This document shows positions 8,245-62,610 of a DNA stretch of 64,000 bases, piece by piece; within the stretch, counting starts at the first letter, position 1; every line of letters begins with the position of its first letter. Both the position numbers and the translations under genes were made by a program. The DNA is taken from IMG/VR virus record IMGVR_UViG_3300028364_000018, positions 58,488-122,487 of that record, one strand, 5' to 3'. The notes under the pieces are model-generated. The model saw nothing but the letters and a program-made list of their open reading frames with translations. It did not search any database and had not been told where the DNA came from. The DNA is from a virus.

Positions 8245-8608
8245 AACCCAAACTAGATATCTGATACTGGCCCTCGCCCTGGGCCTTCCGGCGTTCACCA
8301 ATACCGGTTGTACGCACGTCGAGATCCCCGCCGCAATAGAGGGGGAGGCCGATCTCTCCAGAGAGGTCTATACAAGACTCAGAGGCACGTACTTCAATTT
8401 GGCGGTGCATACACTGCACATCGAGCACGGAGCACCTCCAGAAGTACGGATGATCGGTCAACGCCTAGAGGTGCAGATAGATGGGTCGGAACCGCAACTT
8501 GATTGGGCGGTGGATGAGGTGGTGCGCCTCATCCAACTAAACACCCCAGAAGAAGATTGGGGAGAACTCGACCCTGCGCTGTTCTACGACCGGAGTTGGG
8601 AACGATGA
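8228..8608 (+). CDS. Lipoprotein, partner of S8 protease (copy 2)
   Basis: Lipobox NTGC; paralog of 886..1275. Confidence 0.8.
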   Translation: MLRLLRTQTRYLILALALGLPAFTNTGCTHVEIPAAIEGEADLSREVYTRLRGTYFNLAVHTLHIEHGAPPEVRMIGQRLEVQIDGSEPQLDWAVDEVVRLIQLNTPEEDWGELDPALFYDRSWER

Positions 8609-9405
8609 GGCCTCGGGTACTGGTGGCAGACACCTGGAGTAAGGATGTGGATAACCGCCTTAAACGGGCTTTCCCCAATGCCCGCTTCATCCCCTTGGGA
8701 ACACCCTCTGGAAACCATCCGCACGGTCATATGGTGACGGAGGCTCTCCTTACCCGATTCGGGCAGGGTGAGATCGATATCTACCTCTATGCACACCTAG
8801 AAGAGCAACAGCAACATACTCAAGGCTGGCTTGAACAAGCACGGAAGCATCAAATCCCATGGATCAACAATAGCTGGGGGGCGACCGCCCGTGGATCCTA
8901 TGTTGTACCGCAACACCGGGATATGGAGGGGCTCCTCGCATTGTTTGCGGCTGGCAACAGCGATAGGTCGCGCAGAGGTAAGCCCGACACTACTTGGGAT
9001 GTGAATGAGCCGCAGAGGAGTCTGGCTCACCTGCAGGGCACCGTAATAATTGGTAGTTGTGATGCACGGGGTCTCCCCAGCACCTGGTCTTCTGATGGAC
9101 TGGTGGATGTGGCCTACCGTGGTGAACGTCATTGGTTATTCAACCCACTCACAGGGTTCTACGAGTGGGTGGATGGTACGTCCTTCGCCTGCCCGTTGGC
9201 ATCGGCAGACGCCGTAAGAATGAACCTGCGTACCGAAGAGCAACTTAAAGAGTGGTGGAGTCAACCCGGGGTTGCAACCCGCGCACCTGGTTGGCCACAG
9301 AACATCCTACACCCGAAAACAGGAAGAGGCTTTATATCTGATGCCCTACCCAAGGCCCCGCACGTGGCCTCACTTTCTTATAGTGAGTATACTCGGGTCT
9401 CCTGA
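8605..9405 (+). CDS. Subtilisin-like (S8) serine protease (copy 2, 266 aa)
   Basis: ATG 8605 (ATGA overlap). Motifs VLVADT, HPHGHMV, INNSWG, AAGNSD, GSCD..STWSSDG.VDVAYRGE, GTSFACP. Confidence 0.85.
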   Translation: MRPRVLVADTWSKDVDNRLKRAFPNARFIPLGTPSGNHPHGHMVTEALLTRFGQGEIDIYLYAHLEEQQQHTQGWLEQARKHQIPWINNSWGATARGSYVVPQHRDMEGLLALFAAGNSDRSRRGKPDTTWDVNEPQRSLAHLQGTVIIGSCDARGLPSTWSSDGLVDVAYRGERHWLFNPLTGFYEWVDGTSFACPLASADAVRMNLRTEEQLKEWWSQPGVATRAPGWPQNILHPKTGRGFISDALPKAPHVASLSYSEYTRVS

Positions 9406-9863
9406 TGTACTACAATAGCCTGTCTAACACGTACTTCGGTAACGATGGTAAGCTAGAGTGGCACGGTTGGCGGGATGTCCCATGGGTTTCCGTGGGAGAT
9501 GGACCTCTGTCCTCCAGACCCTTCACATTGGTACGCCCTGCCCACTTTTATAGTCGCACGGTCGACCGTTGGATAGATCTACCAGACGGCTTCTCCACCG
9601 ACTTCTTTAGTATACCAAGGCCCTGGCGCTGGTACTTCCAAACGATGGGTCCCGGGAGGACAGCCGCGCTTCTACACGACTTCCTAGTGGAAGACCGCCC
9701 TGATTGGTGTGATACCCACCTAGCCTCCGCCATTTTCATGGAGGCCTTGACCCTAGCCAAGATTGGTGGTTGGCGCGTCCAAGCTTTTGGTTGGGCTACT
9801 GAGCATTATGGCCCCCAATTTTCTAAGAAATATCCGTATAATACACAACCCAAGGGACGGTGA
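9405..9863 (+). CDS. DUF1353-family protein
   Basis: GFSTDFFSIPR..W..AALLHDFL..AIFMEAL signature. Confidence 0.8.
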   Translation: MYYNSLSNTYFGNDGKLEWHGWRDVPWVSVGDGPLSSRPFTLVRPAHFYSRTVDRWIDLPDGFSTDFFSIPRPWRWYFQTMGPGRTAALLHDFLVEDRPDWCDTHLASAIFMEALTLAKIGGWRVQAFGWATEHYGPQFSKKYPYNTQPKGR

Positions 9864-11413: not shown

Positions 11414-13657
11414 GTGAAAGCCGTACAACTACTCATTGAATCCCGGCTTCCTCCAGAACTGCGCGATTATAACCGGGAGTACACAGCTAAGTCCATAGGG
11501 AATCTCCTATCGGACTTGGCAGTTTCGTACCCAGATAAGTACGACGAGGTGAGCAGGCTTATCGGTGACACTGGGCGTAACAGTAGTTACTGGCAGGGTG
11601 ACACCATCAAACTGTCTGACCTGAAGCCCGTATTCGACAAAGAACCGTTGTTGGAGCAGATGAAGGCGGAGATCGCGGGCTTACCACGGGATGACCCGAA
11701 GTTCGAGGACCAGCGCCAGGCTGTATGGATCCGGTACAACGAGGAGATGCAGAGGCTCACCAACGAGGCAGGAGCCACGTCCGATAACAGCATCGCACGA
11801 GCTGTATTGAGCGGTGCGCGTGGTAAACCCGACCAGATGAAGATGATGCTGACCGCCCCCGGACTCTACTCCAACAGTAAGGGTGTAGTTCCGTTATTCA
11901 TCAGTCATAGCTTTGGAGAGGGCCTGCGCCCCGCTGAATACCTGGCTAGTACCTACGGAGCACGTGATAGTATTGTGAAGATCAAGACCGCTACGGCGAA
12001 AGGTGGCGATTTTGGGAAGCAAATTGCGCAAACTGCTGCTACTACGATAGTTACGACGAAAGACTGCGGTACAGACAACGGGTTGGACTTGGATTTGGCA
12101 GACCCCTCGCTGAGAGGCCGGGTGCTGGCTAAGGCCGTGGGTGGGCTGGGAGTCGGAACTGTTTTAGATCGAAGTGCCTTACAACAGTTGGAGAAGGAGA
12201 AGGTCACGACCGTTATAGCGAGGTCGGCCATGACCTGTAATGCCGGTACTGGTGTGTGCCAGCAGTGCATCGGTAAGTTTCACGATCAACGCTTTCCTAA
12301 GATAGGGGAGGCAGTGGGGGTAACAGCGGCTAACGCATTAAGCGAGCCCGTCACTCAAGGCAGCCTTGGATGTCTAACGGACGATACACTGGTTCGTATG
12401 ACAGACTTCACTACCAAAAGAATCGACCAGATCAAGGTCGGGGACATGGTGTTAGGCTCGGATGTAAAGGCCAGGACCTTCCCGGTCAAGGTCCTACATG
12501 TGTGGGATAAAGGACTCCAACCGGTCAAGCGTCGGGTTTTCACCCAGCCGGAGCTATCAGTGGACTGTACTGACGACCATATCATGCTCTTGTCGGATGC
12601 ACAGGGTGTTCTCAGCAAACAACCAGCTGGAACCCCGGGAGAGGTGTTGGCCCCCATAGTCGGGCTTCCACACCCTCTACCCAGAACAGCTGTGGAAGAC
12701 CTAGGCCTTCTTCACTGCATGGACATCAGCGTCGATCACCCGGATGAGCTGTTTGTCCTAGCCAACGGTTTGATAGTTAAGAACAGCAAACATTCGGGAG
12801 GCCAGACAACAGGTAAAAAAGAGTATTCGGGCTTCAACGTCATCAACCAACTTGTGCAATCCCCAGAGGAGTTCCCAGACAGAGCCCTAGTCTCGGAAGA
12901 GAGCGGTACAGTCAGCTCCGTAGAAGAAGCACCCCAAGGTGGGTTCATCGTGACTGTTGGAGAATCCCAGCATTACGTACCCCAGGGGTATCCGGTGATG
13001 GTTAAGTCCGGCGACCGGGTTGAGGCGGGTGATCAGCTCAGCGAGGGCCTGATAGACGCGGGTGACATCGTACGCCTTCGTGGTCTAGGTAGCGGACGGC
13101 GTTACTTTGCGGATCGCCTACACCGTGTACTGGAAGACAGTGGATTCGGAGGGGATAAACGTAATGTGGAGATCGTAAGTCGGTCTGTCATTGATCATGC
13201 TCGTGTCGAGGATGACCAGAACCTACCCGGGACACTCCCTGACGATCAGATCAGCTACAACCGCCTTAGCCAGACCTACACCCCACCAGCGTCCTCCAAA
13301 CGTCTTCCAACAGCAGATACAGTCGGCCAATACCTACAGAGCCCGGCTCTGCACTACTCGATTGGAACCCGGCTAAGCCCCTCCCAAGTAAAACGCCTCC
13401 AAACATCGGGCTATACCCATCTTGAGGTATCTCCGGAAGAGCCGGGGTTCCGTACGGAGATGCAGAGACTTCGGACATCCACACAGACCAACCCCGACTG
13501 GTTGGCCCGGCAAGGCGCTTCGTACCTCAAGAGTAATTTACTGGAAGGGGCGGTCCGAGGACAGGACACCAATATACAATCTAACATTCATTTTGGACCG
13601 AGGCTTGCATTTGGTAAGGATTTCGGTAAGAATACGGCAACTACAGGAGAATTTTAA
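11414..13657 (+). CDS. rpoC: Phage RNA polymerase beta-prime subunit, C-terminal half, intein-containing
   Basis: SGARG, SFGEGL.PAEY..STYGAR (bridge helix), KDCGT and CNAGTGVCQQC (Zn site), GEAVGV.AA..LSEPVTQ, SKHSGG (trigger loop), KRNVEIV. No NADFDGD motif, so this is one piece of a split subunit. Confidence 0.92.
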   Translation: MKAVQLLIESRLPPELRDYNREYTAKSIGNLLSDLAVSYPDKYDEVSRLIGDTGRNSSYWQGDTIKLSDLKPVFDKEPLLEQMKAEIAGLPRDDPKFEDQRQAVWIRYNEEMQRLTNEAGATSDNSIARAVLSGARGKPDQMKMMLTAPGLYSNSKGVVPLFISHSFGEGLRPAEYLASTYGARDSIVKIKTATAKGGDFGKQIAQTAATTIVTTKDCGTDNGLDLDLADPSLRGRVLAKAVGGLGVGTVLDRSALQQLEKEKVTTVIARSAMTCNAGTGVCQQCIGKFHDQRFPKIGEAVGVTAANALSEPVTQGSLGCLTDDTLVRMTDFTTKRIDQIKVGDMVLGSDVKARTFPVKVLHVWDKGLQPVKRRVFTQPELSVDCTDDHIMLLSDAQGVLSKQPAGTPGEVLAPIVGLPHPLPRTAVEDLGLLHCMDISVDHPDELFVLANGLIVKNSKHSGGQTTGKKEYSGFNVINQLVQSPEEFPDRALVSEESGTVSSVEEAPQGGFIVTVGESQHYVPQGYPVMVKSGDRVEAGDQLSEGLIDAGDIVRLRGLGSGRRYFADRLHRVLEDSGFGGDKRNVEIVSRSVIDHARVEDDQNLPGTLPDDQISYNRLSQTYTPPASSKRLPTADTVGQYLQSPALHYSIGTRLSPSQVKRLQTSGYTHLEVSPEEPGFRTEMQRLRTSTQTNPDWLARQGASYLKSNLLEGAVRGQDTNIQSNIHFGPRLAFGKDFGKNTATTGEF
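12371..12784 (+). mobile_element. Mini-intein (138 aa, no homing endonuclease)
   Basis: Starts CLTDDTLV..KRIDQIKVGDMV, block B CTDDH, ends MDISVDHPDELFVLANGLIVKN followed by Ser +1. Confidence 0.9.
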
Positions 13658-14538
13658 TGAACCACACACAGAAACTACAAGCAGCGCAATTAATGATGGA
13701 GAAAGAGGCCGGGATGAAGGCCTTGTTGGGTGGAGCTAAGAAAGTCCTCCCTTTTATGGGACAGGCGTTTAAGGGCGTGCCCGAACAGGTAGGAATTGCT
13801 CGGGCTGCGGGAGGTGCTAAAGGTGTATTGGGAGCTGGTTGGAAATCTATCACGGGAGGCGGGGCAGGTATTCGCAACACCATTGGCGGTTGGAATAACC
13901 GTAGACGGGCCATGGGCTTAACACGCAAGATGAAAGACCTGCGAGGTCAGTATGCGCTTACTGATAACCCCGCACTCCGTACGACCTTGACCGGTAAAAT
14001 GGATGATCTAGGGGTCCAAGCTCGCAAATACCTCAAAATGGATGATGCGCCCAGTTTGGGTAATATGGATGACATTAGCCGGCTTGGAGCTGTTGGCAGG
14101 CTGCAGAAGAACATGGGGGTGAAGACTATGAAGGCCAACCCATTCGGAACCGCAGCCTTAACCGCTGGTGGTATGTACGGCGGTGCCCAAGGCATTGGCT
14201 ACGGCGCGGGGCTCGCCACAGGTGATCGCAGTGGCGAACGCCAGTTTCAGGACATGAGCCAGATGGATACCCTCAGTCGCATTCAGTACCTACTCAACCC
14301 CGAGCAGTTCATTCAGAACCAAGGACAACGCTGGGATGAGAGTGGTAAACAACCTTCGGTCCTGAACTGGGCAATGTCTGGTATCGGTGGATTCCGTAGT
14401 GGTCAACGCCAGATACAGGACGTGATGGATAATCGAGCTTTACAGACCATGGGACAAGCACCCTGGTACCAACGTCTGGGCTACACCGTAGCACCACAAA
14501 CAGCTATAGACCGTGTAAGACAGGGTATGGGACGCTAA
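13657..14538 (+). CDS. Leader-bearing Gly-rich putative internal head/ejection protein
   Basis: N-terminus MNHTQKLQAAQLMMEKEA; Gly/Ala/Met-rich cargo. Confidence 0.6.
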   Translation: MNHTQKLQAAQLMMEKEAGMKALLGGAKKVLPFMGQAFKGVPEQVGIARAAGGAKGVLGAGWKSITGGGAGIRNTIGGWNNRRRAMGLTRKMKDLRGQYALTDNPALRTTLTGKMDDLGVQARKYLKMDDAPSLGNMDDISRLGAVGRLQKNMGVKTMKANPFGTAALTAGGMYGGAQGIGYGAGLATGDRSGERQFQDMSQMDTLSRIQYLLNPEQFIQNQGQRWDESGKQPSVLNWAMSGIGGFRSGQRQIQDVMDNRALQTMGQAPWYQRLGYTVAPQTAIDRVRQGMGR

Positions 14539-15137
14539 TGACCAACCTTGAGAAACTCCAGGCCGCTCAGGCCCTCCGCGTCAAGGAATCCAGCTGGATT
14601 CCCCGGACCGTAGGCTGGTTGGGCGCCAAAGGCTGGGGGGCCGCCAAGTATTTGGCTCCCAAGGCCCTGAAAGGACCGAAGATCAGTCAAGGACCACGGC
14701 GAGCCCTGGGTTGGTTGGGTCAGAGCTATGGCGGGGCAGCCTCCGGAGTTGGGAACTTTGGTTTGCGCAATTCCAAGCATGGTGGCAAGTTCTTTAAGGC
14801 ACTCCGCGACCTAGGCTACCAAGGACAGAACTTTGGGACGCTCCAACGCGATATCATAGGCAATCAAGCGTGGTCCAAGGCATTCGCAGGTGGAAACTAC
14901 AACCCGGCTAACTGGGGGCGCCACGCTCTCCGTAACTGGTCCGGTTTTGCCCTAGGTAGTGGTATGATCCCTCACACAGCTATCCCCTACTTTGGGTTAT
15001 CTCCTATGAACCTTGTGCTGGGCGCCCAAGACGTAGCCAGTAGAGCTAAAGCACAACCCCGGATTCCGAGGGCTCCTCGCCCGCCAGTGCCGTCCCATAA
15101 CAACTATACCTACGCAACTAACTACCCTAGGCGATAA
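14538..15137 (+). CDS. Leader-bearing Gly-rich putative internal head protein
   Basis: N-terminus MTNLEKLQAAQALRVKES. Confidence 0.6.
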   Translation: MTNLEKLQAAQALRVKESSWIPRTVGWLGAKGWGAAKYLAPKALKGPKISQGPRRALGWLGQSYGGAASGVGNFGLRNSKHGGKFFKALRDLGYQGQNFGTLQRDIIGNQAWSKAFAGGNYNPANWGRHALRNWSGFALGSGMIPHTAIPYFGLSPMNLVLGAQDVASRAKAQPRIPRAPRPPVPSHNNYTYATNYPRR

Positions 15138-15138
15138 A

Positions 15139-15837
15139 ATGAATGATGTCATGAAACCAGAACTGCTAGAAACCAACCTTATCAAGATCTGCACATTAGG
15201 CAGCCGTGCCGCGGTACAGAACAGAACTCCGGGATACTACCAACACGTAATCAGCGGTTGCGACTGGGCTGGGTCTGACTACAAGCTACCTAACACCCCG
15301 CCAGATAGCTTCAACGCCCACGTTATGTTGGGTATCACCCCTGCGGGTGAGTTTGATATCCTACATATGGATCAGACCGCGGGCTCAGAACGCCAATGGG
15401 TCGTGAATTGTGTCCTGGACGACCATAAACGCTTGGGAGGCACCGCCCTTGCCAGCGACTTCGGAGCCGGAGTGGTTTCTAATGAGCTACTAGGGAAAGT
15501 TCTGGACCCCGCACAACATACGATCTTTAACTACTGTGGAGCAGACAACCCGGAAGTGCAGGACTCTGAGTTCGGACCCCGTCATGTTAGTATCAACCGC
15601 AATGCATCCCTTACTGGGTTCTTCGATGCCATAAGAGCAGGGCGTATCCGCTGCTATGATTGGGACGAGGCTGAGGCACTGCTGAGTGACTGCCTGTGTA
15701 TGTCCCACAAAGAGACTCCGGCCTTCCGTTATGTCAGAACAGGGTCGGAACCAGTTAACACCATCCACGCCCTGAATTTCGCTTTCACTTTGGGCAAGAT
15801 CATGCTAGGGGAATACCCTAATTACAAAAGGTACTAA
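15139..15837 (+). CDS. Stand-alone paralog of the terminase nuclease domain
   Basis: Colinear with the C-terminus of 60745..62610: ICTLG, SGCDW, VMLGIT..FDI.HM, LASDFGAG, RIRCY.W.EA, NFAF.LGKIMLGE. Confidence 0.85.
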   Translation: MNDVMKPELLETNLIKICTLGSRAAVQNRTPGYYQHVISGCDWAGSDYKLPNTPPDSFNAHVMLGITPAGEFDILHMDQTAGSERQWVVNCVLDDHKRLGGTALASDFGAGVVSNELLGKVLDPAQHTIFNYCGADNPEVQDSEFGPRHVSINRNASLTGFFDAIRAGRIRCYDWDEAEALLSDCLCMSHKETPAFRYVRTGSEPVNTIHALNFAFTLGKIMLGEYPNYKRY

Positions 15838-15838
15838 T

Positions 15839-16207
15839 ATGAATAACTCAGAAAAACTACAAGCCTCACTATTGGTGAAAGAGGCGATAAACTGGGGAGC
15901 TGTACGAAACTACGGCGAACGTATGGGGCGCGGAGTGCGTAGATCTGGAGACTGGCGCGAGTTTGGGAAGGGCCTGGTTTCGGCGCCTGCAAACTTAGCA
16001 AGCGCCCTCAATATAGGTAAAGGTATAGACCCTGTCGGAGCTGCGGGGGGTCTAGGCTCTTACATATCGGGAGCAGGTCTAACAGGTTTGGCGACGGCAC
16101 CCTTTATACTGCTAAATAATAAAATACTTGATAAGAAGCTAGCAGAATCAGAAACTAAACCCGGTGCACGAAGCTTCGCTGACATAGTGTGGAGAAATAA
16201 AATTTAA
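15839..16207 (+). CDS. Leader-bearing Gly-rich putative internal head protein
   Basis: N-terminus MNNSEKLQASLLVKEA. Confidence 0.6.
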   Translation: MNNSEKLQASLLVKEAINWGAVRNYGERMGRGVRRSGDWREFGKGLVSAPANLASALNIGKGIDPVGAAGGLGSYISGAGLTGLATAPFILLNNKILDKKLAESETKPGARSFADIVWRNKI

Positions 16208-16224: not shown

Positions 16225-18348
16225 ATGAAAGACTTATTCAACAAACTATGGAAGAAACAGGCTTCGGCCCAATTCAGCGACAACGACATCGAACGAGCAT
16301 TTATGGACCAAGCCTACGGCTTCATCCAGAATAAGGCGGGTAAGCTCCTGAGCGACCCCCATCGCCTGGGCTTCGAAATCGTCTACAAGAATGACAACAG
16401 CACCCGCATGGTCGGTATCTTCGCCTTCCGGGCAGAGAAGCGTTTGTTGTACGCCCCTAGCTTCTTCATCAACGGTGAAATCAAAGGTACGGACCTCCTG
16501 TACCAGCATGACCGCAAACTCTTTACACCCCTGACGGAGGAATGGGCCAACTACCTCCTGAAGGCACAGAACATGAATCAAGGAAGTGGTTACCAAGGCG
16601 ACGCCCCCCGGACGCGCTCTGCCGACCTCTATAAGCTGGTCAGTCCCAGCCAAAGTAATAACTTTAGTAAGTACGCCTCCTACGAGTCAGCACCTGCCAC
16701 CATCGAGCCCCCTATTTCCGAGGTGCTGGACGAGATGTTTAAGCGGGCGGAGCTTCAACCAATTCTCCAACGCTTTATACTGGAGGATGGAGGTAGGCAT
16801 GCGGTGGAGTCCATCGAACGCGCGGTTCACACCAATATGAAGTTCGCACGAGCTTTATCAGAGGTAGATCCCTCTCAATACCTTCCGGAACTCCCGGTTG
16901 AGAAGAAGGCGAGTACCGCACCCGTCCTAACGCTAGTCCGGGGACTGCAACAGGGGGTTAAGTCCGCTTTTGACCAAGCCCGAGTTCTTAAGTACGGCTT
17001 TACCCTGCTGGACGACCGCCATGACCTGAACACAGTTGAGGTCGATGACCTTCAGCTGGAGAGTGTCGCGGAATCCGGGGTGTATAAGGTGTTGATGGCA
17101 GACGGCTCCAGGCAGGAAATGGTGTGCGTGGTGGACGACAAAGGAGGTTGTGGTTCCGACGAAATGCGGACGACAGCCAACACCAAATGTGTGGACTCCA
17201 AAGGTCGGATGTCTGTAAGACGGGGCGACCCTGTTTACGGCGAGCAACTGATGGACCAAAACCTAGAGAAATACAAGAAGGCACCTACCGCTGGTAAAAC
17301 CTACCTGTTCTTTGATGCGCAGAACCCCAGCCGGGGACAACTCTTCAAGGTCAAGAGCATTTCAAAACGCGGAGACATCCAGACTCTGGAACTCGAAACC
17401 GAGTACGGGTCTGAAAGGACCATGACGGTCAACCCCGACCTCAAGGGAGACCTTAAGGACAGTGGTGATGAGCTTCTGGCGGGCGCCGGATATATGTGGA
17501 TCCCGGTCAAGACCAAGTCCACCGACTACGGCTTTGATGTGGAGGATGGAGAGGCGTTGGGTACTGACCAGTCGCTAAATCGTATGGTGGAGAAATCCGG
17601 GTCGATCCGGCTCAAGCTCTCAAACCATCCAGACAACGGCTGGAGCTTGAAGATGCTTGACAAAGTCGTGGGCAAGGACCTGGATGTAACGAGCATGGCG
17701 GTTAAGCTGGCTCGGGATCTACACATAGGCGCAGATCATGTATTTGGCTTGCTGGAGACGGCTCAGCCTTCGGTGGACTTCTGGATGAACGTCGACGGGC
17801 TGCGTAAAAGCGGGTCGATGCAGGTCATGGAAGAACCAGACTTTGAAGACGACTACGACAGCCAGTTCGGTGTGCCGGTTAACTACGGGCATGCACAATC
17901 TCTGGAGGTCAGCACCCCATTCGAGGAGCTTCCACAACAGCGCGTTGGCGATACGGAGGATCCAAACGATGGAGGAGGTGCGCCGCACGAGATGCTGATG
18001 AACGCATCTCCAGAGGAATTAGCGCAGTACGCCGAGATGAATCAGCTCCCCAACCTCTTCGAGCATGGGATAGTCGGTTCGATGGTCAAGTCCTTCGACT
18101 CCCCAGCCATGCTCGACCGGTATATGCCTGATCTGGAGAAGGCGCTGGATAGTATGGGACGCTCTCTCTTCCTCCTGTTCTGGAAGCCCGGCGAGTTCGA
18201 CGACGCTTGGGGTCCTGAAGAGCGTCAGAGCACCGAAGACGAGATGCTGGCCAACTTCAAGAGCTTCGGGGACATGGTTCTCCATCTCCTACATAAATCT
18301 AAATCTAATCGAGGTGTGGTTGGTATCTCCAGTAACGCCACCGCATAA
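16225..18348 (+). CDS. Large putative prohead core protein
   Basis: 707 aa with K-x-A sites (KQAS, KYAS, KRAE, KKAS, KSAF); located in the head cluster. Confidence 0.5.
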   Translation: MKDLFNKLWKKQASAQFSDNDIERAFMDQAYGFIQNKAGKLLSDPHRLGFEIVYKNDNSTRMVGIFAFRAEKRLLYAPSFFINGEIKGTDLLYQHDRKLFTPLTEEWANYLLKAQNMNQGSGYQGDAPRTRSADLYKLVSPSQSNNFSKYASYESAPATIEPPISEVLDEMFKRAELQPILQRFILEDGGRHAVESIERAVHTNMKFARALSEVDPSQYLPELPVEKKASTAPVLTLVRGLQQGVKSAFDQARVLKYGFTLLDDRHDLNTVEVDDLQLESVAESGVYKVLMADGSRQEMVCVVDDKGGCGSDEMRTTANTKCVDSKGRMSVRRGDPVYGEQLMDQNLEKYKKAPTAGKTYLFFDAQNPSRGQLFKVKSISKRGDIQTLELETEYGSERTMTVNPDLKGDLKDSGDELLAGAGYMWIPVKTKSTDYGFDVEDGEALGTDQSLNRMVEKSGSIRLKLSNHPDNGWSLKMLDKVVGKDLDVTSMAVKLARDLHIGADHVFGLLETAQPSVDFWMNVDGLRKSGSMQVMEEPDFEDDYDSQFGVPVNYGHAQSLEVSTPFEELPQQRVGDTEDPNDGGGAPHEMLMNASPEELAQYAEMNQLPNLFEHGIVGSMVKSFDSPAMLDRYMPDLEKALDSMGRSLFLLFWKPGEFDDAWGPEERQSTEDEMLANFKSFGDMVLHLLHKSKSNRGVVGISSNATA

Positions 18349-60744: not shown

Positions 60745-62610
60745 CTAACCCATGTAAGGATCTGGAACGTGTTGGATCGGGCTGTCAAAGTGTGTGAGTT
60801 TATTCTGCAACTCGCGTTGCAGGCCCTGATCCGGTACAAGCTGCTCACCCAACATTATCTTACCCAGCACAAACGCGAAGTTTGTGGCATGCAACGTATC
60901 GTCAGGCTGTTCCCCGGACCTTAAGTATCGGAAGGTGGTTGAACCCGTCGCGCTGTTCTCACTCTGAGTACGCGTCATGTTGAGGAAGTAACTTAAAAGG
61001 GTCTTGGCCTCCTCCCACTCATAACAACGAATACGACTTTCCTTTACAGCCATAAACAACTTGGTAATCGCTTCATTGCGGTTCAAGCTGAGTTGGTTGA
61101 ACATGTGGTCACCATGTGGTTCGGCGACCGCCGCACTGTTGGGTCCCACGTAGTTAAAGATAATATGACGGCTGGCGCTCAGAGCGCTGGACTCCCGTAG
61201 CAGCATGTTGTAGGCGGCTCCCGCTCCAAAGTCACTGGCAAGGGCGTTCCCACCCAGTCGTCGGTGATCCGCAAGGATGTGGCCTACAATCTCCCGGTAG
61301 CCCATACCAGAGTAACGGCGCATGTGAATGATATCGAACTTCCCGTCGTTGGTGATACCCAACATAACATGGACAGTATAACTCTCCTTGGTATGGGTAG
61401 CCCGATTGTAGTCCGACCCACCCCAGTCACAACCGCTGACAATATACTTGTAGTAACCCTGTGTTTTAGCCTTCTTCTGTACTACATCCTGTGTCCCAAG
61501 AGTGCAGATGCTGATGAGTTCCTGCTCAGTTAACTCCCGGGCACCCTGCTCGGTTGGTATACCCATAACTTCCTGTAAGAACTTGGGGGTGTCGTACTCG
61601 TTGTAGGCATCCCATATCTCCTTCCACTTGACTGGGTCGATTGTGAAGTCCGGTATGATTATCTGAGGGACGTGCAGGCTAGTATTGTATTGCTCGAACC
61701 GACCCTGCATCTCGTGGACAAAGAAGCCAGAACGCGGGTCCAACCTGACCCCGGTCCAGGGGCAGCACAGCCCCTTCTGCTGAATGGCCGCCATTATCTG
61801 CTTCTGGTTCCCGCAGTCCAGGTAACGAGGAGCCCCGGTCTTCGTCCGACCCGGACACCGGATGTGCCAGGTGCCTCTTGAGCCGTTCTGATAGTTGGAT
61901 TCCAAGAATGTATCAATCGTGAGTGACGTGCCGGCTACCAGAAATACAGGCCAATTACTGGCCTTCATCACCTGCTGAACCTCCGGCCAGAGTCCCCCAT
62001 CAAAGCTCTGGGCCTCGTCGATGCTTAGCCAGTCTGTGGTCTTACCACGAGTCTGCTCGGCGGAGGTATAGGCATACACCAGATCGAACACAGCGCCCGA
62101 TGGGTACTCCTTATAATACTGGTTTTGCTTAAACTCTACGGAGCTGACCTTGATCCGACAGTAGCGTTCGAGCTCCATGACCTTTCGGGCAAAAGTCTCC
62201 AACTGCTTATTATGAGGTGCCAAGTACATCATCCTCTTACCCAGAACATGAGCCACCACCAGCTTGAGAGCTGCCAAGGTCGTGGACTTCGCGGCCTGGC
62301 GCCCCGCCCTAACCACGGTCTTGGAACCGGGTACGACTGATGTCATGCTGAACCCAAAAGGGCGATTGAGTAGTGAGAGGGGTTGGCGTTTGTTGTCCCT
62401 ATCTATTATATAAGCCGGAAACATATAAGGAAAAAGCATTCCCAGATTATAGTTGCAAGCTTCAAGTAGTTTGTTCATACTACGAGCAAGATTACGACCA
62501 CCCCTGGGATCTCGTTCCAACACAGACACGCAGGCACCAAGCCTTGACAGAAGTTGTTGGAACTCCCGGTCGGTCTTCATCCTTTGATATAAATCCCAAT
62601 TCTGGCGCAT
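60745..62610 (-). CDS. terL: Terminase large subunit (GpA-like)
   Basis: Walker A RAGRQAAKST, TRG, Walker B IDEAQ, Cys-rich insert, nuclease motifs SGCDW, SDFG and QPDDTLHA. Confidence 0.9.
   Translation of the reverse strand: MRQNWDLYQRMKTDREFQQLLSRLGACVSVLERDPRGGRNLARSMNKLLEACNYNLGMLFPYMFPAYIIDRDNKRQPLSLLNRPFGFSMTSVVPGSKTVVRAGRQAAKSTTLAALKLVVAHVLGKRMMYLAPHNKQLETFARKVMELERYCRIKVSSVEFKQNQYYKEYPSGAVFDLVYAYTSAEQTRGKTTDWLSIDEAQSFDGGLWPEVQQVMKASNWPVFLVAGTSLTIDTFLESNYQNGSRGTWHIRCPGRTKTGAPRYLDCGNQKQIMAAIQQKGLCCPWTGVRLDPRSGFFVHEMQGRFEQYNTSLHVPQIIIPDFTIDPVKWKEIWDAYNEYDTPKFLQEVMGIPTEQGARELTEQELISICTLGTQDVVQKKAKTQGYYKYIVSGCDWGGSDYNRATHTKESYTVHVMLGITNDGKFDIIHMRRYSGMGYREIVGHILADHRRLGGNALASDFGAGAAYNMLLRESSALSASRHIIFNYVGPNSAAVAEPHGDHMFNQLSLNRNEAITKLFMAVKESRIRCYEWEEAKTLLSYFLNMTRTQSENSATGSTTFRYLRSGEQPDDTLHATNFAFVLGKIMLGEQLVPDQGLQRELQNKLTHFDSPIQHVPDPYMG

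What the first reader, a model, noticed from the sequence alone, without database searches (positions are those of the whole stretch)
15139..15837. Stand-alone terminase nuclease domain lacking the C-terminal catalytic Asp pair
Seen: a 232-aa paralog of this phage's own TerL C-terminal domain, starting at the inter-domain linker (ICTLG) and similar even at DNA level (tcagcggttg.gactggg). It is on the opposite strand 45 kb away, between leader-bearing genes. The first acidic motifs (GCDW, SDFG) are kept, but QPDDTLHA has become EPVNTIHA, and the frame is intact. Established: the late Asp is a metal ligand in TerL RNase H folds, and Avs/STAND defence proteins recognise TerL. Inference: a pseudo-nuclease acting as a defence decoy or a packaging regulator.
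Basis: partly seen in the sequence, partly recalled or inferred. Interest (0 to 1): 0.75.

Follow-up and report, generated by a model that had tools for sequence, protein, structure and literature searches.

The report
Dead stand-alone copy of terminase nuclease
An uncultured large phage carries, next to its head genes, a young extra copy of only the DNA-cutting half of its own packaging enzyme. The copy has lost a key catalytic residue but is still kept by selection, so it is probably a non-cutting helper whose job is untested.

Summary
ORF 15139-15837 (232 aa) is a paralog of the nuclease domain of this phage's own TerL (60745-62610, minus strand): 47% identity, E 3e-70. AlphaFold2 gives pLDDT 91, and the best PDB fold matches are TerL nuclease domains.

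In 210 TerL homologs D42, D107 and D207 are invariant and D206 is 96% conserved. The ORF keeps D42 and D107 but reads V206-N207. It has also changed about 15 other strongly conserved positions and lacks the C-terminal tail.

It is not decaying. Synonymous sites are saturated, and a three-taxon codon model gives omega about 0.11, against 0.014 for TerL. Neutrality is rejected.

It is young and lineage-specific. It groups with its own TerL inside the nine closest sequences, on a branch 12-13 times longer. Two relatives lack it at the syntenic site. No ortholog appeared among 1.84 billion representatives; one other stand-alone copy (P0223), in another jumbo phage, has also lost the Asp pair.

Best reading: a selected, catalytically crippled accessory protein made with the head genes, acting by binding rather than cutting. 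The mechanism is inferred. The Avs-decoy idea is untested and disfavoured. The scan had earlier noted ATPase-domain paralogs of TerL on other DNA, but no nuclease-domain one.

The parts
15139..15837 (+). ORF232: stand-alone paralog of the TerL nuclease domain (linker helix plus RNase H-like fold), without the C-terminal tail.
   Evidence: 47% identity to own TerL residues 359-589, E 3e-70. AF2 pLDDT 91.4, pTM 0.90. Foldseek top PDB hits are TerL nuclease domains 5m1f, 4ife, 8dkr and 3cpe. Omega 0.11.
15262..15264 (+). Codon of D42, the first catalytic Asp at the end of strand beta1. Retained.
   Evidence: D in 210 of 210 TerL homologs. Strand E36-42 in the model.
15457..15459 (+). Codon of D107, the second catalytic Asp at the end of strand E103-107. 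Retained.
   Evidence: D in 210 of 210 TerL homologs (structure).
15754..15759 (+). Codons of V206 and N207, which replace the conserved Asp-Asp pair at the start of the last helix.
   Evidence: Position 206 is D in 201 of 210 homologs and position 207 is D in 210 of 210. All 26 short hits or fragments that cover the motif keep D207. Helix H207-222. G20c D428/D429 mutants: PMC5389553.
60745..62610 (-). The phage's complete TerL (621 aa), the parent of the duplicate. The nuclease domain is roughly 60745-61536.
   Evidence: phrog_675 TerL at E 2.4e-26. tblastn to annotated TerLs. 269 homologs found, many on ~200-kb contigs. Sister to ORF232 in the tree.
13657..14538 (+). Leader-bearing gene A (293 aa, Gly-rich, pI 10.3). 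Conserved in relatives.
   Evidence: KLQAAQ..EKE leader. Positional counterparts of similar make-up lie in L010 and L012, with no significant sequence match. pI.
14538..15137 (+). Leader-bearing gene B (199 aa, pI 11.2). Conserved in relatives; lies directly upstream of ORF232.
   Evidence: 34% identity, E 7e-8 to the 199/212-aa gene of L012-L014. pI.
15839..16207 (+). Leader-bearing gene C (122 aa). Lineage-specific like ORF232; its leader is a DNA-level copy of gene A's leader.
   Evidence: No counterpart in L010 or L012. Local DNA alignment score 33 against a shuffle maximum of 26.
16225..18348 (+). Conserved 707-aa core gene of this phage group, the downstream anchor of the synteny comparison. 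Function unknown.
   Evidence: 149 homologs, on the same ~200-kb contigs as the TerL homologs. AF2 pLDDT 79 with no significant PDB fold match.
11414..13657 (+). RNA polymerase beta'-like subunit with a Hint (mini-intein) insert, the upstream anchor of the synteny comparison.
   Evidence: Pfam RNA_pol_Rpb1_5 at E 6e-11 and Hint at E 4e-5. Orthologs in L008, L010 and L012.

Best explanation
ORF232 is a young intragenomic duplicate of the nuclease domain of this jumbo-type phage's own large terminase. It was inserted into the head-gene operon between the leader-bearing basic proteins and a conserved 707-aa core gene.

After duplication it lost the metal-A Asp pair (DD to VN), several conserved basic and aromatic residues, the conserved linker motif and the C-terminal tail. 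It evolved about 12-13 times faster than TerL, yet stayed under purifying selection.

Shown: homology, fold, the residue losses, selection, lineage-specific presence and operon position.

Inferred: it no longer cuts DNA, and it works as a non-catalytic binding module made together with the head and packaging proteins. The most likely mode is that it associates with the packaging motor (TerL or its docking site) through surfaces inherited from the nuclease domain and linker helix, and so modulates when or where TerL cuts or docks. It would be an accessory, not a core part of the motor.
For: Homology and fold.

Active site: D42 and D107 are kept. D206 and D207 are replaced, although D207 is invariant in 210 homologs and in every short hit that covers the motif. 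In G20c, D429N was among the least active mutants and D428N/A were strongly reduced (PMC5389553).

Other changes at positions that are at least 85% conserved: K55P, R119G, R190H, Y114S, N148R, G44A, T59N, M83S, Y85R, N187C and D226Y. In all, 17 of 49 such positions differ, against 2 of 49 in the phage's own TerL. The pI is 5.4 against a family median of 6.9.

The isolated P74-26 nuclease domain neither binds nor cuts DNA, and the TerL C-terminal tail is thought to bind portal (PMC5389665).

Selection: pS 0.77 (saturated) and dN 0.41; codon-position identities are 66, 70 and 39%. Omega is 0.11, and the test of omega = 1 gives 2dlnL 9.9 without and 57.7 with equal times for the two paralogs. P(no stop) under drift is 0.007 or less. 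All internal gaps are in frame.

Origin: ORF232 is sister to its own TerL (UFBoot 99, aLRT 75) inside a 100/98 clade of nine; branch lengths are 1.07 and 0.086.

Accessory status: absent between gene B and the 707-aa homolog in L010 and L012-L014.

Expression context: translational coupling with head-module neighbours. The same gene is present, letter for letter, in the contigs compared from three other samples; eight contigs carry it in all.

Precedent: the phi29 gp16 CTD is a vestigial terminase nuclease that kept a binding role (PMC7672431).
Against: There is no biochemical, expression or interaction evidence.

Asn can still ligate a metal, and D42, D47, D107 and H210 are retained, so residual or altered nuclease activity is not excluded.

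The ORF lacks the C-terminal tail through which TerL is thought to dock on portal, so the contact it would use is unknown.

A gene found in only one lineage, with no sequence variation among samples, gives no ortholog-based test. The omega estimate rests on saturated dS and on a home-made three-taxon model.

The AU test does not reject a somewhat older duplication (p 0.29).

The mapping of D206/D207 onto G20c D428/D429 rests on motif, invariance and secondary-structure position, not on a residue-level superposition.
Confidence: 0.45

Rival explanations
1. It is still an active or re-tuned nuclease or nickase, using D42, D47, D107, H210 and N207. It would act on phage or host DNA independently of the motor, for example in trimming, branch resolution or host DNA attack.
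For: Two of the three metal ligands and the neighbouring His are retained after about 1.07 substitutions per site. Omega is 0.11. The fold is RuvC/RNase H-like.
Against: In G20c, D429N was among the least active mutants and D428 mutants were strongly impaired (PMC5389553). ORF232 carries both changes plus the loss of the conserved K55, R119 and R190, and it is unusually acidic. The isolated P74-26 nuclease domain does not bind or cut DNA without the ATPase domain (PMC5389665). No second ATPase-domain copy exists in the 122-kb record.
Confidence: 0.15
2. It acts in the conflict with terminase-sensing host immunity (Avs1-3 or Upx type), either as a decoy that soaks up a sensor or as a modulator of TerL detection.
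For: It is lineage-specific, fast-evolving and accessory. It would be made late, when TerL is made. SeAvs3 binds the folded nuclease domain extensively, and KpAvs2 can be activated by some nuclease domains alone (PMC13601566).
Against: SeAvs3 recognises active-site residues and the ATP bound to the ATPase domain, and EcAvs2 is activated by the ATPase domain. ORF232 has neither. The known stand-alone TerL-like proteins (vs.8, Ksap1/2) activate Avs2 rather than inhibit it (PMC13601566). Binding to a STAND sensor normally triggers oligomerisation, so a binder would more likely be a liability. The host and its defences are unknown.
Confidence: 0.12
3. It serves the neighbouring leader-bearing basic proteins or the head interior. 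It could be an acidic chaperone or assembly partner for them, or itself a packaged or ejected protein, with no link to TerL function.
For: It sits between genes whose products carry an N-terminal leader ending in x-K-E followed by A or S. These products are very basic (pI 10-11.2), whereas ORF232 is acidic (pI 5.4). It arrived together with a new leader-bearing gene.
Against: ORF232 has no such leader. Adjacency alone is weak evidence. No virion proteome exists.
Confidence: 0.15
4. It is a functionless duplicate on its way to decay.
For: It occurs in a single lineage. It has lost 17 of 49 strongly conserved positions, including a catalytic Asp. Its branch is very long.
Against: The frame is open, with P of 0.007 or less under drift. 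All internal gaps are in frame, and first and second codon positions are far better conserved than third positions (chi-square 52.6, p 4e-13). Omega is 0.11 and omega = 1 is rejected. The gene starts are tightly coupled.
Confidence: 0.05

Closest known systems
C-terminal nuclease domain of large terminases (RNase H/RuvC-like; solved for G20c 5m1f, P74-26 5tge, Sf6 gp2, T4 gp17, SPP1 G2P, E217, HCMV UL89)
   Same: It is clearly homologous to this phage's own TerL (47% identity) and has the same fold (Foldseek probability 1.00). The first two catalytic Asp residues are kept.
   Different: It is encoded as a separate gene without the ATPase domain. The third metal-ligand Asp and its neighbour are replaced (VN). 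The linker motif and the C-terminal tail are missing. About 15 other family-conserved residues are changed.
phi29 gp16 C-terminal domain, a 'vestigial nuclease' (Mahler et al. 2020, PMC7672431)
   Same: It is a terminase-type nuclease fold that lost catalysis but was kept for a non-catalytic role in packaging.
   Different: The phi29 CTD is still fused to the ATPase and is the motor's only C-terminal domain. ORF232 is an extra, stand-alone copy beside an intact TerL. DNA binding by ORF232 is untested, and its charge argues against it.
HSV-1 UL15.5 (C-terminal product of the terminase gene UL15; PMC2885020)
   Same: It is a separate polypeptide comprising only the C-terminal part of the large terminase, made alongside the full-length protein, and is non-essential.
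   Different: UL15.5 is an in-frame product of the same gene with an identical sequence. ORF232 is a diverged paralogous gene 45 kb away with a mutated active site.
Stand-alone TerL ATPase-like phage proteins (T4 vs.8, Ksap1/Ksap2; PMC13601566), and the ATPase-domain paralogs noted earlier in this scan
   Same: They are single-domain, lineage-restricted derivatives or look-alikes of the large terminase with unknown function.
   Different: They copy the ATPase half, whereas ORF232 copies the nuclease half. vs.8 and Ksap1/2 are Avs2 triggers; nothing of that kind is known for ORF232.
P0223 (215 aa; L007 10001-10648, 181-kb contig of assembly GCA_040384045.1)
   Same: It is the only other stand-alone TerL-nuclease-like protein found here. 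It also comes from a phage with multisubunit RNA polymerase genes, and it has also lost the Asp pair.
   Different: It shares only ~30% identity and has a different context, next to an RNase H gene. It has a hydrophobic N-terminal segment, the whole beta-hairpin plus the DD motif is deleted, and it is basic (pI 9.4). It is probably an independent event.
C-terminal TerL pieces of split terminase genes (e.g. the 254-aa 'terminase large subunit' of Enterococcus phage EFLK1, the top BFVD hit)
   Same: It is a short ORF holding only the nuclease fold (TM 0.76/0.70).
   Different: Whether such short entries are pieces of split genes was not checked here; that they are rests on my own knowledge. If so, the piece is the phage's only nuclease domain, whereas ORF232 is an additional copy beside a complete TerL.

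Membership tests
Large-terminase nuclease domain (RNase H/RuvC-like) | Terminase-type RNase H-like fold | tested here: met
   AF2 pLDDT 91.4. The Foldseek top hits are all TerL nuclease domains, E 1e-7 to 1e-4, probability 1.00. In BFVD the named top hits are TerLs.
Large-terminase nuclease domain (RNase H/RuvC-like) | Sequence homology to a bona fide TerL | tested here: met
   47% identity, E 3e-70 to the phage's own TerL. 131 hits, the full-length ones all TerL-sized or intein-bearing TerLs.
Large-terminase nuclease domain (RNase H/RuvC-like) | First and second metal-ligand Asp residues (G20c D294 and D347 equivalents) | tested here: met
   D42 and D107 are present. Both are invariant in 210 homologs.
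Large-terminase nuclease domain (RNase H/RuvC-like) | Third metal-ligand Asp at the start of the last helix (G20c D429 equivalent) and its neighbour (D428) | tested here: not met
   N207 and V206. D207 is invariant in 210 of 210 homologs and D206 occurs in 201 of 210. The equivalence to G20c residues is inferred from motif and secondary structure.
Large-terminase nuclease domain (RNase H/RuvC-like) | Covalent fusion to the N-terminal packaging ATPase | tested here: not met
   The ORF starts at the linker. The upstream gene is unrelated. No second ATPase-domain copy exists in the record.
Large-terminase nuclease domain (RNase H/RuvC-like) | C-terminal tail (thought to bind portal) | tested here: not met
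   The phage's own TerL continues 32 residues past GKIMLGE. ORF232 ends after 7 unrelated residues.
Large-terminase nuclease domain (RNase H/RuvC-like) | Endonuclease activity | not testable with these tools
   This needs an enzyme assay.
Vestigial (non-catalytic) terminase nuclease, phi29 gp16 CTD type | Terminase nuclease fold with catalytic residues lost | tested here: inconclusive
   One of three metal ligands and its helper Asp are lost; two ligands are kept.
Vestigial (non-catalytic) terminase nuclease, phi29 gp16 CTD type | [quoted passage not shown] | tested here: not met
   ORF232 is a separate gene 45 kb from TerL.
Vestigial (non-catalytic) terminase nuclease, phi29 gp16 CTD type | Binds DNA or RNA in the motor | not testable with these tools
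   Only indirect evidence exists: loss of conserved basic residues and a pI of 5.4.
Anti-defence decoy against terminase sensors (Avs1-3, Upx) | Binds the sensor without activating it, or protects TerL from detection | not testable with these tools
The features read by SeAvs3 and EcAvs2 (active-site residues, ATP, ATPase domain; PMC13601566) are absent from ORF232.

The most novel reading that the evidence does not exclude
ORF232 and P0223 may be the first examples of a nuclease-half counterpart to the TerL-ATPase look-alikes (vs.8, Ksap1/2). Phages would repeatedly spin off a catalytically dead copy of the terminase nuclease domain as a trans-acting accessory. That accessory would tune cutting or docking of the packaging motor, or interfere with a competitor's or satellite's motor, or with a host sensor that reads the nuclease domain.
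Probability: 0.2. Interest if true: 0.7.

Novelty: new variant of a known kind. Interest (0 to 1): 0.5.

Why it matters
Large terminases are the universal packaging enzymes of tailed phages and herpesviruses, and they are a major target of bacterial pattern-recognition immunity.

Stand-alone copies of the ATPase half have recently come into view (T4 vs.8, Ksap1/2). I found no description of a selected, stand-alone, inactivated copy of the nuclease half beside an intact TerL in the papers searched.

If it acts on the motor in trans, it would be a natural handle on how nuclease activity is held off during translocation and released at headful. If it acts in phage-host or phage-phage conflict, it would widen the set of terminase-derived players.

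It is also a clean, datable case of a pseudoenzyme born by intragenomic domain duplication in a virus.

The limits are real. It is one uncultured lineage with an unknown host, and no functional data exist.

Tried and rejected
**Orthologs.** None were found. Searches of 5.8 billion clustered proteins, 1.84 billion representatives, IMG/VR contigs, cultured phages and GTDB genomes (three loci, all full-length TerLs) gave only TerLs.

**P0128 as a possible ortholog.** Rejected. Its frame is open to the end of a 1.1-kb contig, it keeps the TerL tail, and it is 64% identical to a full-length TerL. It is a TerL fragment.

**Other short hits.** They are fragments or C-terminal pieces that keep D207.

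**Population pN/pS.** Impossible. The contigs from the three other samples compared are identical across the gene.

**Exact dating of the duplication.** The AU test does not reject placing ORF232 just outside the eight closest TerLs (p 0.29). FastTree under plain LG put it deeper still, which I take to be long-branch attraction.

**The 707-aa neighbour as portal.** Not supported. Pfam, PHROGs, the ESM Atlas and Foldseek against the PDB all gave no match.

**ORF232's last codons as a copy of the 3' end of the RNA polymerase gene.** Not supported by local alignment; only the leader of gene C matches gene A.

**ORF232 as the C-terminal half of a split second TerL.** No second ATPase-domain copy exists in the record.

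**Sequence links to solved structures.** None, so the catalytic mapping rests on fold topology and invariance.

**L008.** This closest relative has a scaffold gap exactly at the site, so it is uninformative.

Full report
**Where the window lies.** The window is bases 58488-122487 of a 122.5-kb IMG/VR virus record that CheckV rates as 63% complete. It encodes multisubunit RNA polymerase pieces, a long structural module and a TerL. It is therefore a large, uncultured tailed phage of roughly 200 kb. Homologs of its TerL and of its 707-aa core protein lie on many ~200-kb metagenomic contigs. The INPHARED collection holds no close relative; the best TerL match there is 22% identical.

**The observation.** ORF 15139-15837 encodes 232 aa. 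Its start follows the stop of the upstream gene by one base, and its own stop is followed after one base by the next start.
- BLASTP against the 621-aa ORF at 60745-62610 (minus strand) gives 47% identity over 231 columns, E 3e-70, covering residues 359-589 of that protein.
- That protein is the large terminase. It matches phrog_675 at E 2.4e-26 over nearly its whole length, it matches annotated TerLs by tblastn, and several homologs carry the Pfam families Terminase_6N or GpA ATPase.
- With an alignment of 78 sequences, AlphaFold2 models ORF232 at pLDDT 91.4 and pTM 0.90.
- The best PDB fold matches are all terminase nuclease domains: G20c, Sf6, E217, D6E, T4, SPP1, P22, P74-26 and the herpesvirus terminases.
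- In BFVD the named top matches are TerLs.

**Active site.** I cut the homologous domain out of 210 TerL relatives and aligned them.
- D42, D107 and D207 (ORF232 numbering) are Asp in all 210, and D206 is Asp in 201.
- In the model these positions sit where the RNase H/RuvC-type terminase nucleases carry their metal ligands: the end of strand beta1 (E36-42), the end of strand E103-107, and the first turn of the last helix (H207-222).
- ORF232 keeps D42 and D107 but has V206 and N207.
- Among all short hits and fragments that cover the motif, every one keeps D207.
- In G20c TerL, D294 and D429 coordinate metal A. D294N, D347N and D429N were the least active mutants, and D428N/A were strongly impaired (PMC5389553). 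ORF232 is in effect a natural D428V/D429N double mutant. This equivalence is inferred from motif, invariance and secondary structure, because no sequence-level link to a solved structure could be made.
- Seventeen of the 49 positions that are at least 85% conserved in the family are changed in ORF232. They include the basic residues K55, R119 and R190, plus Y114, N148, G44, T59 and D226. The phage's own TerL differs at only two of these positions.
- The protein is unusually acidic: pI 5.4, against a family median of 6.9 and a 5th percentile of 5.9.
- The conserved linker motif GIPTE.G is deleted, and the 32-residue C-terminal tail of TerL is missing. That tail is the part thought to dock TerL on portal (PMC5389665).

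**Is it decaying?** No.
- Between ORF232 and the TerL domain, the proportion of synonymous differences is 0.77 (saturated), while dN is 0.41.
- Identity is 66% and 70% at first and second codon positions but 39% at third positions (chi-square 52.6, p 4e-13).
- All internal gaps are in frame.
- Simulated neutral drift of the parental sequence leaves the frame free of stops in 0.7%, 0.3% and 0.07% of runs at 0.3, 0.45 and 0.6 substitutions per site.
- I wrote a three-taxon codon model (GY94 type, F3x4, one omega per branch), with TerL P0004 as the third sequence (DNA). It gives omega 0.11 for ORF232, 0.014 for the phage's own TerL and 0.022 for P0004.
- Fixing omega of ORF232 at 1 costs 2dlnL 9.9. 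The cost is 57.7 when the two paralogs are given equal time since duplication, as they must have had in one genome.
- Because dS is saturated, the value 0.11 is rough. The direction is clear: constraint is about eight-fold relaxed relative to TerL but is still purifying.
- A population test was not possible. The contigs from the three other samples compared are identical over the gene and almost identical (1 difference) over about 15 kb around it; eight contigs carry the gene in all.

**Origin and age.**
- With LG+C20 (PMSF), ORF232 is sister to its own TerL (UFBoot 99, SH-aLRT 75). Both sit inside a clade of the nine closest sequences (100/98).
- The end branches are 1.07 and 0.086 substitutions per site.
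- ORF232 is also most similar to its own TerL: 47% identity, against at most 43.5% to any other TerL.
- The AU test does not reject placing ORF232 just outside the eight TerLs (p 0.29). The duplication therefore happened within this TerL sub-lineage, but it cannot be dated more finely.
- Synteny agrees with a recent gain. The order in relatives L010 and L012-L014 is RNAP beta', then leader gene A, leader gene B, then the 707-aa homolog, with nothing between B and the 707-aa gene. In these relatives the 707-aa protein is 41-42% identical to the window's.
- tblastn finds no ORF232-like sequence in those loci.
- In the window, ORF232 and a third leader gene (15839-16207) lie between B and the 707-aa gene. 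The leader of that third gene is a DNA-level copy of gene A's leader.
- L008 has a scaffold gap at this spot and is uninformative.
- No ortholog appeared in any protein or contig collection.

**A second case.** The only other stand-alone relative is P0223 (215 aa), on a 181-kb contig with multisubunit RNA polymerase genes.
- It keeps the first two Asp residues.
- It has lost the whole beta-hairpin together with the DD motif.
- It has a hydrophobic N-terminal segment and sits next to an RNase H gene.
- It is about 30% identical to ORF232 and no closer to it than to TerLs.
- I read it as an independent event with the same outcome, namely loss of the third Asp.

**What it most likely does.** A stand-alone nuclease domain with both late Asp residues replaced, fewer basic residues and no ATPase partner is unlikely to cut DNA. 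Even the wild-type isolated nuclease domain of P74-26 TerL neither binds nor cuts DNA (PMC5389665). Yet the protein is held by selection and is translationally coupled to head-module genes. It should therefore be made late, alongside TerL.

The phi29 gp16 C-terminal domain shows that a terminase nuclease fold can lose catalysis and keep a binding role in the motor (PMC7672431). That paper also reports that the inter-domain linker promotes oligomerisation, and ORF232 keeps the linker helix (H7-16).

My best reading, at moderate confidence, is a non-catalytic accessory that uses inherited surfaces to associate with the packaging machinery and modulate TerL. Because close relatives do without it, it is not a core motor part.

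**Rivals.** The alternatives are:
- residual or altered nuclease activity;
- a role with the very basic leader proteins or inside the head;
- an immune-conflict role;
- decay.

SeAvs3 reads active-site residues and ATP, EcAvs2 is activated by the ATPase domain, and the known stand-alone TerL look-alikes (vs.8, Ksap1/2) trigger Avs2 rather than block it (PMC13601566). Decay is largely refuted.

**Relation to earlier notes of this scan.** Several earlier notes describe stand-alone paralogs of the TerL ATPase domain in other genomes. None concerns the nuclease domain, and none is on this genome. They gave me the pointer to vs.8 and place this finding in a wider class of terminase-derived single-domain genes.

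**Limits.** There are no expression, interaction or activity data. The record is incomplete, and the host is unknown.

Noticed in passing
window 11414-13657 (+): The RNA polymerase beta'-like subunit (747 aa) carries a Hint-type mini-intein of roughly residues 317-460 (CLTDD...VKNS). Orthologs in L008 and L012 are 610 aa without it. The L010 ortholog is 978 aa, with a Hint plus LAGLIDADG insert.
   Followed up: partly
window 13657-14538, 14538-15137, 15839-16207 (+); L010 8191-10004; L012 6047-7452: Three very basic, Gly-rich proteins (pI 10-11.2) share an N-terminal leader (KLQA[AS]...) that ends in x-K-E followed by A or S at residues 15-18. Three of the four counterparts in relatives end their leaders the same way (MTKE/A, MVKE/A, AIKE/A). 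This looks like a prohead-protease cleavage or capsid-targeting signal, in the manner of the T4 internal proteins. These are the only three such leaders in the 122-kb record.
   Followed up: partly
window 15839-15890 vs 13657-13710: The leader of the 122-aa gene is a DNA-level copy of the leader of the 293-aa gene (local score 33, shuffle maximum 26). The site between gene B and the 707-aa gene has therefore gained two genes by intragenomic copying.
   Followed up: partly
L007 10001-10648 (contig JAWVHH010000141.1, 181 kb): P0223 is a second stand-alone TerL-nuclease-like protein, with a hydrophobic, Arg-rich N-terminal segment. Its beta-hairpin and DD motif are deleted. It overlaps the start of an RNase H (PF00075) gene and lies 1.8 kb upstream of the RNAP beta' gene.
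   Followed up: partly
window 16225-18348 (+): A 707-aa protein is conserved across this phage group (149 homologs). It has a confident multi-domain AF2 model (pLDDT 79) but no Pfam, PHROG or PDB fold match. It occupies the place where a portal might be expected, but no portal fold match was found.
   Followed up: partly
TerL homologs P0039, P0049, P0053, P0054 and others: Many TerLs of this family are 800-1100 aa long and carry inteins or homing-endonuclease domains (PF14890, PF05204, PF14528). The window's own TerL has none.
   Followed up: no
window 8557-9405 and 9405-9863 (+): A subtilisin-like Peptidase_S8 gene and a DUF1353 gene lie just upstream of the RNAP beta'/head block. The same pair is seen in L003, and Peptidase_S8 also in L008. 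Whether S8 is the prohead protease that would cut the x-K-E leaders is open.
   Followed up: no
L016, L017, L018 (GTDB MAG contigs): Full-length TerLs of this family sit on contigs binned into Polynucleobacter, Oscillospiraceae and Bacteroidales MAGs of 14-203 kb. These are probably mis-binned phage contigs. The family spans freshwater and gut habitats.
   Followed up: no
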